In this document: positions 8,600-13,632 of the stretch, piece after piece
How the letters are laid out: each line of letters starts with the position of its first letter
Numbering within the stretch: the stretch's first letter is position 1
Assembly (NCBI RefSeq): GCF_058153355.1
Contig: NZ_CM177019.1
DNA: 64,000 nt
Reading direction: 5' to 3' (one strand)
The notes under the pieces: model-generated
Told to the model about the DNA's origin: nothing
Database searches by the model: none
The model's input: the letters and a program-made list of their open reading frames with translations, nothing else
Translations under genes and position numbers: made by a program

Positions 8600-11275
8600 A
8601 TGGCTGTTACTAATGTCGCTGAACTTAACGCACTCGTAGAGCGTGTAAAAAAAGCCCAGCGTGAATATGCCAGTTTCACTCAAGAGCAAGTAGACAAAAT
8701 CTTCCGCGCCGCCGCTCTGGCTGCTGCAGATGCTCGAATCCCACTCGCGAAAATGGCCGTTGCCGAATCCGGCATGGGTATCGTCGAAGATAAAGTGATC
8801 AAAAACCACTTTGCTTCTGAATATATCTACAACGCCTATAAAGATGAAAAAACCTGTGGTGTTCTGTCTGAAGACGACACTTTTGGTACCATCACTATCG
8901 CTGAACCAATCGGTATTATTTGCGGTATCGTTCCGACCACTAACCCGACTTCAACTGCTATCTTCAAATCGCTGATCAGCCTGAAGACCCGTAACGCCAT
9001 TATCTTCTCTCCGCACCCGCGTGCAAAAGATGCAACCAACAAAGCAGCTGATATCGTTCTGCAGGCTGCTATCGCTGCCGGAGCTCCGAAAGATCTGATC
9101 GGCTGGATCGATCAACCTTCGGTTGAACTGTCTAACGCACTGATGCACCACCCAGACATCAACCTGATCCTCGCGACCGGTGGTCCGGGCATGGTTAAAG
9201 CCGCATACAGCTCCGGTAAACCAGCTATCGGTGTAGGCGCGGGTAACACGCCAGTTGTTATCGATGAAACTGCTGATATCAAACGTGCAGTTGCATCTGT
9301 GCTGATGTCCAAAACCTTCGACAACGGCGTAATCTGTGCTTCTGAACAGTCTGTTGTTGTTGTTGACTCTGTTTATGACGCAGTACGTGAACGTTTCGCA
9401 ACCCACGGCGGCTATCTGTTGCAGGGTAAAGAGCTGAAAGCTGTTCAGGATGTTATCCTGAAAAACGGTGCGCTGAACGCGGCTATCGTTGGTCAGCCAG
9501 CCTATAAAATTGCTGAACTGGCAGGCTTCTCTGTACCAGAAAACACCAAGATTCTGATCGGTGAAGTGACCGTTGTTGATGAAAGCGAACCGTTCGCACA
9601 TGAAAAACTGTCCCCAACTCTGGCAATGTACCGCGCTAAAGATTTCGAAGACGCGGTAGAAAAAGCAGAGAAACTGGTAGCTATGGGCGGTATCGGTCAT
9701 ACCTCTTGCCTGTACACTGACCAGGATAACCAACCGGCTCGCGTTTCTTACTTCGGTCAGAAAATGAAAACGGCTCGTATCCTGATTAACACCCCGGCTT
9801 CTCAGGGTGGTATCGGTGACCTGTATAACTTCAAACTCGCACCTTCCCTGACTCTGGGTTGTGGTTCCTGGGGTGGTAACTCCATCTCTGAAAACGTTGG
9901 TCCGAAACACCTGATCAACAAGAAAACCGTTGCTAAGCGAGCTGAAAACATGTTGTGGCACAAACTTCCGAAATCTATCTACTTCCGCCGTGGCTCTCTG
10001 CCAATCGCGCTGGATGAAGTGATTACTGATGGCCACAAACGTGCGCTCATCGTGACTGACCGCTTCCTGTTCAACAATGGTTATGCTGATCAGATCACTT
10101 CCGTACTGAAAGCAGCAGGCGTTGAAACTGAAGTCTTCTTCGAAGTAGAAGCTGACCCGACCCTGAGCATCGTTCGTAAAGGTGCAGAACTGGCAAACTC
10201 CTTCAAACCAGACGTGATTATCGCGCTGGGTGGTGGTTCCCCGATGGACGCCGCGAAGATCATGTGGGTCATGTACGAACATCCAGAAACTCACTTCGAA
10301 GAACTGGCGCTGCGCTTTATGGATATCCGTAAACGTATCTACAAGTTCCCGAAAATGGGCGTGAAAGCGAAAATGATCGCTGTCACCACCACTTCTGGTA
10401 CAGGTTCTGAAGTCACTCCGTTTGCGGTTGTAACTGACGACGCTACTGGTCAGAAATATCCGCTGGCAGACTATGCGCTGACCCCGGATATGGCGATTGT
10501 CGATGCCAACCTGGTTATGGACATGCCGAAGTCCCTGTGTGCTTTCGGTGGTCTGGACGCAGTAACTCACGCCATGGAAGCTTATGTTTCTGTACTGGCA
10601 TCTGAGTTCTCTGATGGTCAGGCACTGCAGGCACTGAAACTGCTGAAAGAATATCTGCCAGCGTCCTACCACGAAGGATCTAAAAATCCGGTAGCGCGTG
10701 AACGTGTTCACAGTGCAGCAACTATCGCGGGTATCGCGTTTGCGAACGCCTTCTTGGGTGTATGTCACTCAATGGCGCACAAACTGGGTTCCCAATTCCA
10801 TATTCCGCACGGTCTGGCAAACGCCCTGCTGATTTGTAACGTTATTCGCTACAACGCGAATGACAACCCGACCAAGCAGACTGCATTCAGCCAGTATGAC
10901 CGTCCGCAGGCTCGCCGTCGTTATGCTGAAATTGCTGACCACCTGGGTCTGAGCGCACCGGGCGACCGTACTGCTGCTAAGATCGAGAAACTGCTGGCAT
11001 GGCTGGAAACGCTGAAAGCTGAACTGGGTATTCCGAAATCTATCCGTGAAGCTGGCGTTCAGGAAGCAGACTTCCTGGCGAATGTGGATAAACTGTCTGA
11101 AGATGCATTCGATGACCAGTGCACCGGCGCTAACCCGCGTTACCCACTGATCTCCGAGCTGAAACAGATTCTGCTGGATACCTACTACGGTCGTGATTAT
11201 GTAGAAGGGGAAACTGCAGCGAAAAAAGAAGCCGCTCCGGCTAAAGCTGAGAAAAAAGCGAAGAAATCCGCTTAA
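8600..11275 (+). CDS. adhE: bifunctional aldehyde/alcohol dehydrogenase AdhE
   Basis: 891-aa [29 protein letters not shown]... with C-terminal iron-containing ADH domain; preceded by RBS AGGAG. Confidence 0.97.
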
Positions 11276-11305
11276 TAAGTAGCGCTGTCTGGCAACATAA
11301 ACGGT

Positions 11306-11316
11306 CCCTTCTGGGG
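11306..11316. repeat. IS4 target-site duplication, left copy (CCCTTCTGGGG)
   Basis: identical 11-mer directly flanks both ends of the IS4 element. Confidence 0.85.
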
Positions 11317-12742
11317 TAATGCCGATCAGTTAAGGATCAGTTGACCGATCCAGTGGCTGTGTAAGAATCCGGAAACGCTCACTTGTTTCCGGATTTTTTT
11401 ATGCACATTGGACAGGCTCTTGATCTGGTATCCCGTTACGATTCTCTGCGTAACCCACTGACTTCTCTGGGGGATTACCTCGACCCCGAACTCATCTCTC
11501 GTTGCCTTGCCGAATCAGGTACTGTAACGCTACGCAAGCGCCGTCTTCCCCTCGAAATGATGGTCTGGTGTATTGTTGGCATGGCGCTTGAGCGTAAAGA
11601 ACCTCTTCACCAGATTGTGAATCGCCTGGACATCATGCTGCCGGGCAATCGCCCCTTCGTTGCCCCCAGTGCCGTTATTCAGGCCCGCCAGCGCCTGGGA
11701 AGTGAGGCTGTCCGCCGCGTGTTCACGAAAACAGCGCAGCTCTGGCATAACGCCACGCCGCATCCGCACTGGTGCGGCCTGACCCTGCTGGCCATCGATG
11801 GTGTGTTCTGGCGCACACCGGATACACCAGAGAACGATGCAGCCTTCCCCCGCCAGACACATGCCGGGAACCCGGCGCTCTACCCGCAGGTCAAAATGGT
11901 CTGCCAGATGGAACTGACCAGCCATCTGCTGACGGCTGCAGCCTTCGGCACGATGAAGAACAGCGAAAATGAGCTTGCTGAGCAACTTATAGAACAAACC
12001 GGCGATAACACTCTGACGTTAATGGATAAAGGTTATTACTCACTGGGACTGTTAAATGCCTGGAGCCTGGCGGGAGAACACCGCCACTGGATGATACCTC
12101 TCAGAAAGGGAGCGCAATATGAAGAGATCAGAAAACTGGGTAAAGGCGATCATCTGGTGAAGCTGAAAACCAGCCCGCAGGCACGAAAAAAGTGGCCGGG
12201 ACTGGGAAATGAAGTGACAGCCCGCCTGCTGACCGTGACGCGCAAAGGAAAAGTCTGCCATCTGCTGACGTCGATGACGGACGCCATGCGCTTCCCCGGA
12301 GGAGAAATGGCGGATCTGTACAGTCATCGCTGGGAAATCGAACTGGGATACAGGGAGATAAAACAGACGATGCAACTGAGCAGGCTGACGCTGAGAAGTA
12401 AAAAGCCGGAGCTTGTGGAGCAAGAGCTGTGGGGTGTCTTACTGGCTTATAATCTGGTGAGATATCAGATGATTAAAATGGCGGAACATCTGAAAGGTTA
12501 CTGGCCGAATCAACTGAGTTTCTCAGAATCATGCGGAATGGTGATGAGAATGCTGATGACATTGCAGGGCGCTTCACCGGGACGTATACCGGAGCTGATG
12601 CGCGATCTTGCAAGTATGGGACAACTTGTGAAATTACCGACAAGAAGGGAAAGGGCCTTCCCGAGAGTGGTAAAGGAGAGGCCCTGGAAATACCCCACAG
12701 CCCCGAAAAAGAGCCAGTCAGTTGCTTAACTGACTGGCATTA
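11317..12742 (+). mobile_element. IS4 insertion sequence, complete (1426 bp)
   Basis: imperfect terminal inverted repeats TAATGCCGATCAGTTAAG (left) and TAATGCCAGTCAGTTAAG (reverse complement of right end), 16/18 identical; length 1426 bp; single transposase ORF; 11-bp direct repeats. Confidence 0.9.
11401..12729 (+). CDS. IS4-family DDE transposase
   Basis: 442-aa ORF from ATG 11401 (track ORF starts at alternative TTG 11383); C-terminal Y(2)R(3)E(6)K signature [15 protein letters not shown] typical of the IS4 family. Confidence 0.9.
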
Positions 12743-12753
12743 CCCTTCTGGGG
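12743..12753. repeat. IS4 target-site duplication, right copy (CCCTTCTGGGG)
   Basis: identical to 11306..11316. Confidence 0.85.
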
Positions 12754-13014
12754 CCGTTTTTTTGTTTTACCCAAAGCAACTTTCCCATAAACCGACAGCA
12801 TTTGCCTTCATCATATTTACGGCGATGTATAACGCCTACACACAGCGATATTGTACTTTACAGGTCACAAGTCAACGTCACTGTAAAAGCGATCTGTGAG
12901 GGGTATAGTGGCGTTAAAGAACTGTCGAGAAGGGTATATACACCGGATGAAGTGCGTAAAATGAACTGACAGGATAAAAGCGCCCTGCTCACCCTGTCAG
13001 TAAAGAAATTCTTA

Positions 13015-13632
13015 TTAATCGTGGCGATGCCTTTCCTGAATAGCCGTTAATGAGCCGACTTCTAACGCCTCTTTATAGTGTTTGCGGCATACAGAAACGT
13101 AGCGTTCATTACCACCAATAACCACCTGCTCACCTTCGTTATAAGGTCTGCCTGCTTGATCAAGACGCAGCACCATGCTTGCTTTACGGCCACAAAAACA
13201 GATGGTTTTTAATTCAACCAGTTTGTCGGACCATGCCAGTAAGTATTGGCTGCCAATAAATAATTCACCTCGAAAATCGGTACGTAAACCATAACAAAGT
13301 ACGGGTATATCGAGTTGATCTACAACCTCCGATAATTCATATACTTGTTGTCTGGTTAAAAACTGGCATTCATCAACCAGTACGCAATGAATTGCCTGCT
13401 GTTCATGTTCCGCACGAATCTCATCAAATAATGATGAATTTTGGTTAAATAATTTTGCAGGCGATGACAAACCTATACGCGAGCTGACTTTCCCGGCACC
13501 AAAGCGATCATCAATTTCTGCCGTATATACGACAGTGCGCATGCCGCGTTCCTGGTAATTGTATGAAGATTGCAACAATGCTGTAGACTTACCCGCATTC
13601 ATTGCGGAATAGTAGAAATATAGCTGTGCCAT
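13015..13632 (-). CDS. tdk: thymidine kinase
   Basis: 205-aa [24 protein letters not shown]... with P-loop; divergent from hns. Confidence 0.93.

What the first reader, a model, noticed from the sequence alone, without database searches (positions are those of the whole stretch)
11306..12753. Intact IS4 inserted in the adhE transcription terminator hairpin
A complete 1426-bp IS4 (18-bp imperfect inverted repeats, 442-aa transposase with Y(2)R(3)E(6)K signature) is flanked by an 11-bp direct repeat CCCTTCTGGGG. Removing the element and one repeat copy restores AACGGTCCC-TTCT-GGGGCCGTT followed by TTTTTTTG, a textbook intrinsic terminator directly after the adhE stop codon. The insertion therefore separates the hairpin from its U-tract, so adhE transcripts may read into IS4. 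From memory, K-12 carries only a transposase pseudogene (insZ) at this site; if so this copy would be the intact form of that element.
Basis: partly seen in the sequence, partly recalled or inferred. Interest (0 to 1): 0.45.

Follow-up and report, generated by a model that had tools for sequence, protein, structure and literature searches.

The report
IS4 in the adhE terminator hot spot
An ordinary, intact copy of the well-known jumping gene IS4 sits in the stop-signal hairpin behind the adhE gene, a spot that IS4-type elements have hit repeatedly in E. coli, and the element most likely supplies its own replacement stop signal.

Summary
Window 11317-12742 is a complete 1426-bp IS4, 3 nt different from the K-12 IS4. 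It has 16/18 terminal inverted repeats, an intact 442-aa transposase and an 11-bp target duplication (CCCTTCTGGGG). Removing the element and one repeat copy gives a sequence 100% identical to real empty-site E. coli genomes, with a strong hairpin plus U7 terminator after adhE.

It is not unusual. Among 5426 complete E. coli genomes the site is empty in 2206, holds IS4 in this orientation in 1137, holds IS4 inverted in 190, and holds the K-12-type ISZ in 1885. Repeat lengths of 10, 11 and 12 bp and both orientations show several independent insertions. IS4 generally targets A-tract/hairpin/T-tract sequences, which is the shape of a terminator.

The K-12 idea is wrong in detail. insZ/ISZ lies in the same hairpin but is a different IS4-subgroup element (31% amino-acid identity, internally deleted), not a decayed copy of this IS4.

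The read-through idea is only partly right. IS4 has its own hairpin plus U7 (11363-11400) directly before the transposase ATG. Published K-12 3'-end mapping places the adhE-side 3' end at the equivalent ISZ hairpin, and another 3' end at the IS4 right-end hairpin. adhE transcripts here probably end about 123 nt after the stop codon. Low novelty.

The parts
8600..11275 (+). adhE coding sequence (891 aa), whose terminator is the insertion target
   Evidence: ORF; annotated as adhE in matching genomes
11300..11316 (+). Left remnant of the adhE terminator (AACGGTCCC-TTCT-GGGG). It now lacks its 3' arm end and its U-tract.
   Evidence: Sequence. The remnant folds at only -8 kcal/mol, z 0.15.
11306..11316 (.). 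Left copy of the 11-bp target-site duplication CCCTTCTGGGG
   Evidence: family D18
11317..12742 (+). Complete IS4, 1426 bp
   Evidence: 99.8-99.9% identical to reference IS4 copies
11317..11334 (+). Left terminal inverted repeat (IRL), TAATGCCGATCAGTTAAG
   Evidence: pair I1
11341..11368 (+). Promoter-like site (TTGACC, 16-nt spacer, TG-AAGAAT). It is the candidate transposase promoter. Its -10 box overlaps the 5' arm of the hairpin.
   Evidence: consensus match only. The TTGACC box is conserved in ISZ.
11363..11400 (+). IS4-internal hairpin plus U7, immediately before the transposase ATG. Predicted replacement terminator for adhE transcripts and insulator of the transposase gene.
   Evidence: I5; -19.3 kcal/mol, z -5.2. 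The equivalent ISZ hairpin coincides with a Term-seq 3' end in K-12.
11401..12729 (+). IS4 transposase gene (442 aa, intact; stop codon included)
12705..12738 (-). Inward-facing hairpin plus U-run at the right end of IS4 (minus strand). It stops transcription entering from the tdk side.
   Evidence: 11-bp stem; -32 kcal/mol for the 61-nt minus-strand stretch 12700-12760 that contains it, flanking pairs included. K-12 Term-seq places a 3' end at 4502126/7, position 37-38 of the IS4 right end.
12725..12742 (+). Right terminal inverted repeat (IRR)
   Evidence: pair I1
12743..12753 (.). Right copy of the 11-bp target-site duplication
   Evidence: family D18
12754..12764 (+). Displaced 3' end of the adhE terminator: stem end CCGTT and the T-run (12757-12763)
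   Evidence: empty-site reconstruction
12969..12988 (-). tdk's own terminator-like hairpin (context only). tdk termination does not depend on the adhE hairpin.
   Evidence: K-12 Term-seq places a 3' end at 1294198(+) at the homologous hairpin.
13015..13632 (-). tdk coding sequence (context; convergent with adhE)

Best explanation
An active-looking copy of insertion sequence IS4 has transposed into the rho-independent terminator hairpin of adhE and duplicated the 11 bp centred on the hairpin loop. This is not a chance location. IS4 and its close relatives select targets of the form A-tract, about 20 bp (usually a GC-rich hairpin), T-tract, which is the shape of a bidirectional intrinsic terminator. 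The adhE terminator is a recurrent hot spot that has been hit independently several times in E. coli.

The insertion destroys the native terminator. However, IS4 carries inward-facing hairpin/U-run terminators just inside both ends. In this orientation adhE transcripts are predicted to run 47-84 nt into the element and stop at the IS4 hairpin (11363-11400) right before the transposase start codon. That would give an adhE 3' UTR of about 123 nt and keep the transposase insulated from adhE transcription. The transposase's own promoter-like site would start transcription inside the 5' arm, so its transcripts could not form the hairpin.

Shown: the element's identity, the repeats, the empty-site allele, the population frequencies, the independent insertions and the target consensus. 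Supported by published K-12 data on homologous or identical hairpins: terminator activity. Inferred: termination at 11363-11400 in this strain, and the promoter/hairpin logic.
For: Identity and intactness.

Empty allele: the reconstruction is 100% identical to 8 real genomes, and 2206 genomes have an empty site.

Junction census: IS4 forward 1137 (1133 with the long query), IS4 inverse 190 (checked in FDAARGOS_497, 1426 bp with the same 11-bp repeat), ISZ 1885. Together with the empty sites this accounts for 5418 of 5426 genomes.

Independent events: forward alleles carry 11-bp repeats (window, EC17CM2, O158:H23, AR_0077) or 12-bp repeats on two hairpin backgrounds (TCCC... in IAI39; CCCC... 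in A37 and 789). There are also the inverse orientation and ISZ with a 10-bp repeat. The genomes nearest to the window over 25 kb have empty sites.

Target preference: 22 of the 28 left flanks counted have AAA at -21..-15, against 11.6% of random positions (p = 5e-16), followed by a C-rich then a G-rich stretch, with G at -1 in 24 of 28. Three of the 28 are the adhE hairpin itself (ISZ, IS4 forward, IS4 inverse), so about 26 are distinct sites. Other E. coli IS4 copies sit in the aroA and typA terminators and in similar hairpins, with the repeat centred on the loop.

Terminators: IS4 left-end hairpin -19.3 kcal/mol, z -5.2, plus U7. The native terminator is -18.8 kcal/mol, while its left remnant is -8 kcal/mol, z 0.15. 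ISZ has the same layout with an unrelated stem sequence. Term-seq supplement of Adams et al. 2021 (PMC7815308): a 3' end at 1295324(-) in three data sets, 4 nt after the ISZ hairpin and 122 nt after the adhE stop, with none at 12954xx. The same supplement gives a 3' end at 4502126/7(+), at the U-run of the IS4 right-end hairpin.
Against: No 3'-end data exist for this strain or for any strain with IS4 at adhE. No Term-seq 3' end was listed at the left-end hairpin of the K-12 IS4 copy, though little transcription may enter it there. The simple terminator scan did not list the 11363-11400 hairpin, because A-U pairing of the stem consumes part of the U-run. The K-12 3' end at the ISZ hairpin is labelled 'orphan' in the source table. 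Its assignment to adhE transcripts is my inference from position, strand and signal strength. The transposase promoter is only a consensus match (2 found, 1.6 expected by chance). The A-tract/T-tract rule from the older literature (AAA-N20-TTT) is recalled from memory; I could not retrieve the paper.
Confidence: 0.8

Rival explanations
1. Read-through activation: with the terminator split, the strongly expressed adhE promoter transcribes through IS4 and drives transposase expression, making this copy unusually active under fermentative conditions.
For: The left remnant of the hairpin has no U-tract and folds no better than shuffled sequence. adhE and the transposase gene are on the same strand, 125 nt apart.
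Against: A 12-15-bp hairpin plus U7 ends exactly at the transposase ATG. The architecturally equivalent ISZ hairpin coincides with a strong 3' end in K-12, and the IS4 right-end hairpin also coincides with a 3' end. The window holds only this one IS4 copy in 64 kb, and the median E. coli genome with IS4 has one place, which does not suggest runaway activity.
Confidence: 0.12
2. Single ancient insertion: one IS4 insertion occurred in an ancestor, was inherited or spread by recombination, and decayed to insZ in K-12.
For: The same hairpin is occupied in 59% of genomes. ISZ shares 33 of 35 bp at the left end and most of the last 18 bp with IS4.
Against: The ISZ interior has no significant DNA similarity to IS4 and only 31% protein identity. 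ISZ matches a separate 1406-bp element at 87% identity with a ~390-bp internal deletion. IS4 occurs here in both orientations and with 11-bp and 12-bp repeats. Flank haplotypes identical to the window's occur with an empty site.
Confidence: 0.02
3. Adaptive 3'-UTR remodelling: the insertion is kept because the new IS-derived 3' UTR or terminator changes adhE mRNA stability or expression in a beneficial way.
For: Occupied alleles are very frequent, in four different forms. The 3' UTR is predicted to grow from about 85 nt to about 123 nt with a different terminal hairpin.
Against: Strong target specificity alone explains recurrent insertion. 41% of genomes keep the empty site. No Rfam family or other regulatory RNA signal was found in the region. 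No expression data are available.
Confidence: 0.06

Closest known systems
IS4 of E. coli K-12 (insG, annotated 'insertion sequence:IS4', NC_000913 4502090-4503515)
   Same: Same length (1426 bp) and same ends. There are 3 nucleotide and 2 amino-acid differences (A304G, L326R). The internal hairpins at both ends are the same.
   Different: The chromosomal site differs: adhE terminator here, yjgZ-nanX spacer in K-12. The repeat is 11 bp here and 12 bp there.
IS4 at the adhE-tdk site in E. coli IAI39, CE10 and about 1130 other complete genomes (RefSeq 'IS4-like element IS4 family transposase')
   Same: Same element, same hairpin and same orientation. IAI39 differs at 1 nt within the IS.
   Different: IAI39, A37 and 789 have a 12-bp repeat where the window has 11 bp. 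The flanks differ by 0.6-5.6%, so at least some of these are separate insertion events.
ISZ / insZ pseudogene of E. coli K-12 (b4573)
   Same: It sits in the same adhE terminator hairpin. It belongs to the same IS4 subgroup (ends -AATG...), with 33 of 35 identical bases at the left end. It has the same layout: inverted repeat, TTGACC box, hairpin/U-run, then ATG.
   Different: It is a different element: 31% protein identity, 989 bp because of a ~390-bp internal deletion, a 10-bp repeat, and a disrupted ORF. It was reported as never transposing in mutation-accumulation lines (PMC5009759).
IS4 family, IS4 subgroup as defined by De Palmenaer, Siguier and Mahillon 2008 (PMC2266710)
   Same: [quoted passage not shown]
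   Different: Nothing conflicts. The terminator-like nature of the target and the element-borne terminators are my reading of the data. I did not find them stated in that text.
Protection from outside transcription in IS10 and IS50 (from my own knowledge of the field, not checked here)
   Same: Transcripts entering from outside are prevented from expressing the transposase by RNA structure near the start codon. The element's own transcript starts inside the structure and escapes.
   Different: In IS10 and IS50 the structure masks the ribosome-binding site. In IS4 and ISZ it looks like a full intrinsic terminator, and 3' ends are seen at such hairpins.

Membership tests
IS4 (the element; ISfinder-style isoform criterion of near-identity) | Nucleotide sequence nearly identical to the reference IS4 over its full length | tested here: met
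   1423 of 1426 identical to the K-12 element annotated as IS4; 99.9% to many RefSeq IS4 copies. ISfinder itself could not be queried.
IS4 family / IS4 subgroup | Single-ORF DDE transposase without a frameshift | tested here: met
   One uninterrupted 442-aa ORF; Pfam DDE_Tnp_1 8.7e-32 and Nterm_IS4 3e-33; NCBIfam transpos_IS4_1 at 304 bits against a cut-off of 115.
IS4 family / IS4 subgroup | Y-(2)-R-(3)-E-(6)-K signature in region C1 | tested here: met
   [15 protein letters not shown] at residues 307-321; criterion taken from PMC2266710.
IS4 family / IS4 subgroup | Terminal inverted repeats with the -AATR start; size 1400-1650 bp | tested here: met
   TAATG... at both ends, 16 of 18 matching; 1426 bp; criteria from Table 1 of PMC2266710.
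IS4 family / IS4 subgroup | Target-site duplication of 10-13 bp | tested here: met
   Perfect 11-bp repeat (D18); other copies have 11-13 bp.
IS4 family / IS4 subgroup | Ability to transpose | not testable with these tools
   The ORF and ends are intact. K-12 IS4, which differs by 2 aa, gave 8 new insertions in mutation-accumulation lines (PMC5009759). The effect of A304G and L326R is unknown.
Rho-independent (intrinsic) terminator: native adhE terminator, reconstructed | GC-rich hairpin immediately followed by a U-tract, downstream of the stop codon | tested here: met
   10-bp stem, 4-nt loop, U7; -18.8 kcal/mol, z -5.1; about 24 nt after the adhE stop.
Rho-independent (intrinsic) terminator: native adhE terminator, reconstructed | Transcript 3' ends map to the U-tract in vivo | not tested
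   No 3'-end data set for an empty-site strain was examined.
Rho-independent (intrinsic) terminator: IS4 left-end hairpin 11363-11400 | GC-rich hairpin immediately followed by a U-tract | tested here: met
   -19.3 kcal/mol, z -5.2, seven U at 11394-11400. It was not listed by the simple scan, because the stem's A-U extension uses part of the U-run.
Rho-independent (intrinsic) terminator: IS4 left-end hairpin 11363-11400 | Transcript 3' ends map there in vivo | tested here: inconclusive
   No 3' end is listed at the K-12 IS4 left end. The positionally equivalent ISZ hairpin has a strong 3' end, and the IS4 right-end hairpin has one too. There is no direct test for this hairpin or this strain.

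The most novel reading that the evidence does not exclude
IS4-subgroup elements are 'terminator-homing, terminator-replacing' insertion sequences. They recognise the A-tract/hairpin/T-tract geometry of intrinsic terminators, insert at the loop, and carry inward-facing terminators at both ends that take over termination of the host gene in either orientation. Insertion would then be nearly neutral, and the same terminator (adhE) could be colonised at least four or five separate times and be occupied in 59% of E. coli genomes. I did not find this stated as a general strategy in the literature I could search.
Probability: 0.55. Interest if true: 0.35.

Novelty: already known. Interest (0 to 1): 0.2.

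Why it matters
For this window it matters little. It is a standard IS4 copy at a site where RefSeq already annotates IS4 in more than a thousand genomes, with no evidence of harm to adhE or tdk.

The modest wider value has three parts. First, K-12's insZ should not be read as a remnant of IS4 proper. Second, the adhE-tdk spacer is a four-state marker (empty, IS4 forward, IS4 inverse, ISZ) with recurrent insertions, so it is unreliable as a simple phylogenetic character. Third, the adhE 3' UTR and terminator differ between common laboratory and wild strains, and are IS-derived in K-12. That is relevant to anyone engineering or quantifying adhE expression or annotating 3' ends.

Tried and rejected
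- **Rfam.** A scan of 10800-13300 at E-value up to 1 gave no RNA family.
- **Literature on IS4 at adhE/tdk or insZ.** Nothing relevant turned up beyond tables that list ISZ.
- **Older literature on the target rule.** I could not retrieve the paper I recall for the AAA-N20-TTT rule, nor the 1998 IS review. That rule is therefore cited only as memory, and I derived the consensus from data instead.
- **The simple terminator scan.** It missed the IS4 left-end hairpin, so I relied on folding.
- **The species-representative genome scan.** It gave no Escherichia loci apart from contaminant contigs. It did give 16 or more IS4 left flanks from Kosakonia, but only left flanks, because those contigs break inside the IS.
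- **Assembly artefact.** Considered and rejected, because the identical structure is present in more than 1100 complete genomes.
- **K-12 insZ as the same element.** Considered and rejected.
- **Source strain.** I did not try to identify it further after finding only 98.4% identity to the best complete E. coli genome.

Full report

Yes. The sequence shows adhE ending at 11275 (ORF 8600-11275). It is followed by ...CATAAACGGTCCCTTCTGGGG, then TAATGCCGATCAGTTAAG..., and 1426 bp later by ...CTTAACTGACTGGCATTA, then CCCTTCTGGGGCCGTTTTTTTG.

The repeat finder gives a perfect 11-bp direct repeat at 11306-11316 and 12743-12753 (D18). It also gives terminal inverted repeats (I1), 16 of 18 matching within the element.

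The ORF from ATG 11401 to the stop at 12729 encodes 442 aa. It matches Pfam Nterm_IS4 and DDE_Tnp_1 and NCBIfam transpos_IS4_1 well above cut-off. It carries the YREK signature at residues 307-321. My first translation attempt was one base out of frame.

The element is 99.9% identical to many annotated IS4 copies. It differs from the K-12 element annotated 'insertion sequence:IS4' at 3 nucleotides and 2 amino acids, A304G and L326R.

**2. The empty site is a real allele and a real-looking terminator.**

Deleting the element and one repeat copy gives AACGGTCCC-TTCT-GGGGCCGTT followed by seven T. This folds at -18.8 kcal/mol (z -5.1 against shuffles). A 612-bp construct of the two flanks joined this way is 100% identical to 8 complete E. 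coli genomes. In all, 2206 of 5426 genomes hold at least 80% of it in one piece, meaning they have an empty site.

**3. The insertion is common and recurrent.**

I ran junction-specific 360-nt queries against 5426 complete E. coli genomes:

| State of the adhE hairpin | Genomes |
|---|---|
| Empty | 2206 |
| ISZ (K-12 type) | 1885 |
| IS4, orientation as in the window | 1137 (1133 with the 2426-nt query) |
| IS4, inverse orientation | 190 |
| Total | 5418 of 5426 |

I checked the inverse orientation in strain FDAARGOS_497. It has a 1426-bp IS4, reversed, with the same 11-bp repeat.

Among forward alleles the repeat is not uniform:
- 11 bp in the window, EC17CM2, O158:H23 and AR_0077.
- 12 bp in IAI39 (TCCCTTCTGGGG).
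- 12 bp in A37 and 789 (CCCCTTCTGGGG).
- JNE23-011 is a hybrid of the two 12-bp forms.

Two orientations, two IS4 repeat lengths on two hairpin backgrounds, and a different element (ISZ, 10-bp repeat) together mean at least four or five independent insertions into one hairpin. The genomes closest to the window over 25 kb of flank (98.3-98.4% identity) have the empty site. The window's copy is therefore probably one of the younger events. The window itself is not in the complete-genome collection.

**4. Why this site?**

I collected IS4 junctions from other E. coli loci and from a scan of species-representative genomes. The scan returned mostly Kosakonia oryziphila, plus Photorhabdus and Enterobacter.

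Reconstructed targets include the following:
- the aroA terminator (AAAACGTCGGCA-CAT-TGCCGGCGTTTTTTTT, 13-bp repeat)
- the typA terminator (AAAAAACCTGCCA-TCGC-TGGCAGGTTTTTTTTT, 12-bp repeat)
- similar hairpins in strains 2452 and NCTC86

In each case the duplicated bases are centred on the loop.

One search counted 28 left flanks as separate. Three of them are the adhE hairpin itself (ISZ, IS4 forward, IS4 inverse), so about 26 are distinct sites. Of the 28, 22 have AAA starting 15-21 nt before the junction, against 11.6% of random positions (binomial p = 5e-16). This is followed by a C-rich and then a G-rich stretch, with G at -1 in 24 of 28.

The K-12 IS4 site and the ygeA site are not hairpins but still fit AAA, about 20 nt, TTT. 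[quoted passage not shown] It also agrees with an AAA-N20-TTT rule that I recall from the 1980s literature but could not retrieve. Intrinsic terminators flanked by an A-tract fit this rule naturally.

**5. K-12 insZ is not a decayed copy of this element.**

In K-12 the annotated ISZ/insZ lies between tdk and adhE. Alignment shows it occupies the same hairpin. The left side reads AACGGCCCCTTCTGGG, then CAATGCC...; the right side reads ...GGCATTG, then CCCTTCTGGGGCCGT.

Only the first 35 bp (33 of 35 identical) and the last 18 bp resemble IS4. The roughly 940-bp interior gives no significant BLASTN match. The encoded protein fragment is 31% identical to IS4 transposase residues 23-243.

ISZ matches, at 86-87% identity, a 1406-bp element on an E. 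coli plasmid. That element has its own 10-bp repeat in an A-tract/T-tract target. Relative to it, K-12 ISZ has lost about 390 bp internally. ISZ is thus a separate, defective member of the IS4 subgroup that chose the same target.

**6. What happens to adhE transcription?**

The left remnant of the terminator (11300-11316 plus IS4 sequence) folds at only -8 kcal/mol, no better than shuffles, and has no U-tract. Transcripts should therefore enter IS4.

Forty-seven nucleotides inside the element lies a hairpin (11363-11398; 12-15 bp; -19.3 kcal/mol; z -5.2) followed by seven U (11394-11400). The transposase ATG comes at 11401 (I5, 16). A second hairpin (12738-12713 on the minus strand, 11-bp stem, then UCUUUUU) faces inward from the right end.

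ISZ has the same layout with an unrelated stem sequence: AACGGCTTCC-ACAACA-GGGAGCCGTT-TTCTT-ATG.

The Term-seq tables of Adams et al. 2021 (PMC7815308, supplementary file 1) provide the experimental link:
- A strong 3' end at K-12 1295324 on the minus strand appears in all three data sets. This is 4 nt after the ISZ hairpin and 122 nt after the adhE stop codon. No 3' end is listed at the remnant of the original terminator.
- A 3' end at 4502126/7 (+) lies at the U-run of the right-end hairpin of the K-12 IS4 copy.

No 3' end is listed at that copy's left-end hairpin. This is uninformative if little transcription enters from that side.

I therefore infer that in the window adhE transcripts end near 11398-11401, giving a 3' UTR of about 123 nt, and do not express the transposase. 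In the 190 inverse-orientation genomes the right-end hairpin would do the same job.

A promoter-like site (TTGACC, 16-nt spacer, TG-AAGAAT; 11341-11368) would start transcription inside the 5' arm of the hairpin. The element's own mRNA would then escape termination. This last step is only a consensus match plus analogy with IS10 and IS50, which I cite from my own knowledge.

tdk has its own terminator-like hairpin (12988-12969), and the homologous K-12 site has a Term-seq 3' end (1294198). tdk termination is therefore not affected.

**7. Comparison with what is known, and novelty.**

Every defining feature of the IS4 subgroup that I could test is met; see the membership table. The element is an isoform of IS4 itself. 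The same insertion is already annotated in RefSeq genomes such as IAI39 and CE10. The finding is therefore already known in kind and in instance.

What I did not find stated in the searchable literature are two things: the four-state polymorphism of the adhE terminator, and the reading that IS4-type elements both target terminators and bring replacement terminators. That is a modest synthesis rather than a surprise.

**8. Verdict.**

The insertion site and the terminator disruption are right. The K-12 relationship is wrong in detail. Read-through is probably limited to about 85 nt.
- Interest is low, about 0.2.

Noticed in passing
L003 (241-bp contig NZ_GG667584.1) and L004 (265-bp contig NZ_BPQU01000128.1): A tiny contig filed under Corynebacterium striatum ATCC 6940 carries the E. 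coli K-12-type adhE/ISZ junction. Another, filed under Methylobacterium mesophilicum NBRC 15688, carries the K-12 IS4 junction of the yjgZ-nanX site. Both look like E. coli DNA contamination of draft assemblies.
   Followed up: partly
L006-L021 (Kosakonia oryziphila REICA_142 contigs): At least 16 IS4 left ends identical to E. coli IS4 over the 35 bp searched, most of them about 340 bp from contig ends. This is an IS4 expansion outside Escherichia that fragments the assembly.
   Followed up: partly
window 12754-37753: This 25-kb core-genome stretch (tdk, hns, galU ... narGHJI, narK, narXL, ychO) is only 98.4% identical to the best of 5426 complete E. coli genomes. The 612 bp around the IS site, by contrast, are 100% identical to some of them. 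This suggests a divergent or mosaic lineage that is absent from the collection.
   Followed up: no
L025 (E. coli JNE23-011) and L026 (AR_0077), adhE-tdk locus: JNE23-011 has a hybrid 12-bp repeat (CCCC... on the left, TCCC... on the right), suggesting recombination between occupied alleles or a later point mutation. AR_0077 carries the IS4 with a 17-bp deletion and a frameshifted transposase.
   Followed up: partly
window 12754-13014 (spacer between IS4 and tdk): This spacer is unusually variable between strains: 91% identity to K-12 over 390 bp and 94-99% among IS4-bearing alleles. The adhE side is 98-99.4% identical among IS4-bearing alleles and 94.9% to K-12 over 176 bp.
   Followed up: no
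L039 1500-2905 (plasmid pVTB777v-1 of E. coli VTB96777v): A full-length (1406 bp) relative of K-12 ISZ with a 10-bp repeat CGGCATAGCG and a frameshifted transposase. It shows that K-12 ISZ is an internally deleted copy of this kind of element. L022 (Enterobacter chuandaensis) starts with an ISZ-like left end too.
   Followed up: partly
window 11383-11400: RefSeq annotates the IS4 transposase in two ways: 448 aa from a TTG that lies inside the hairpin, or 442 aa from the ATG. The ATG version matches K-12 insG.
   Followed up: no
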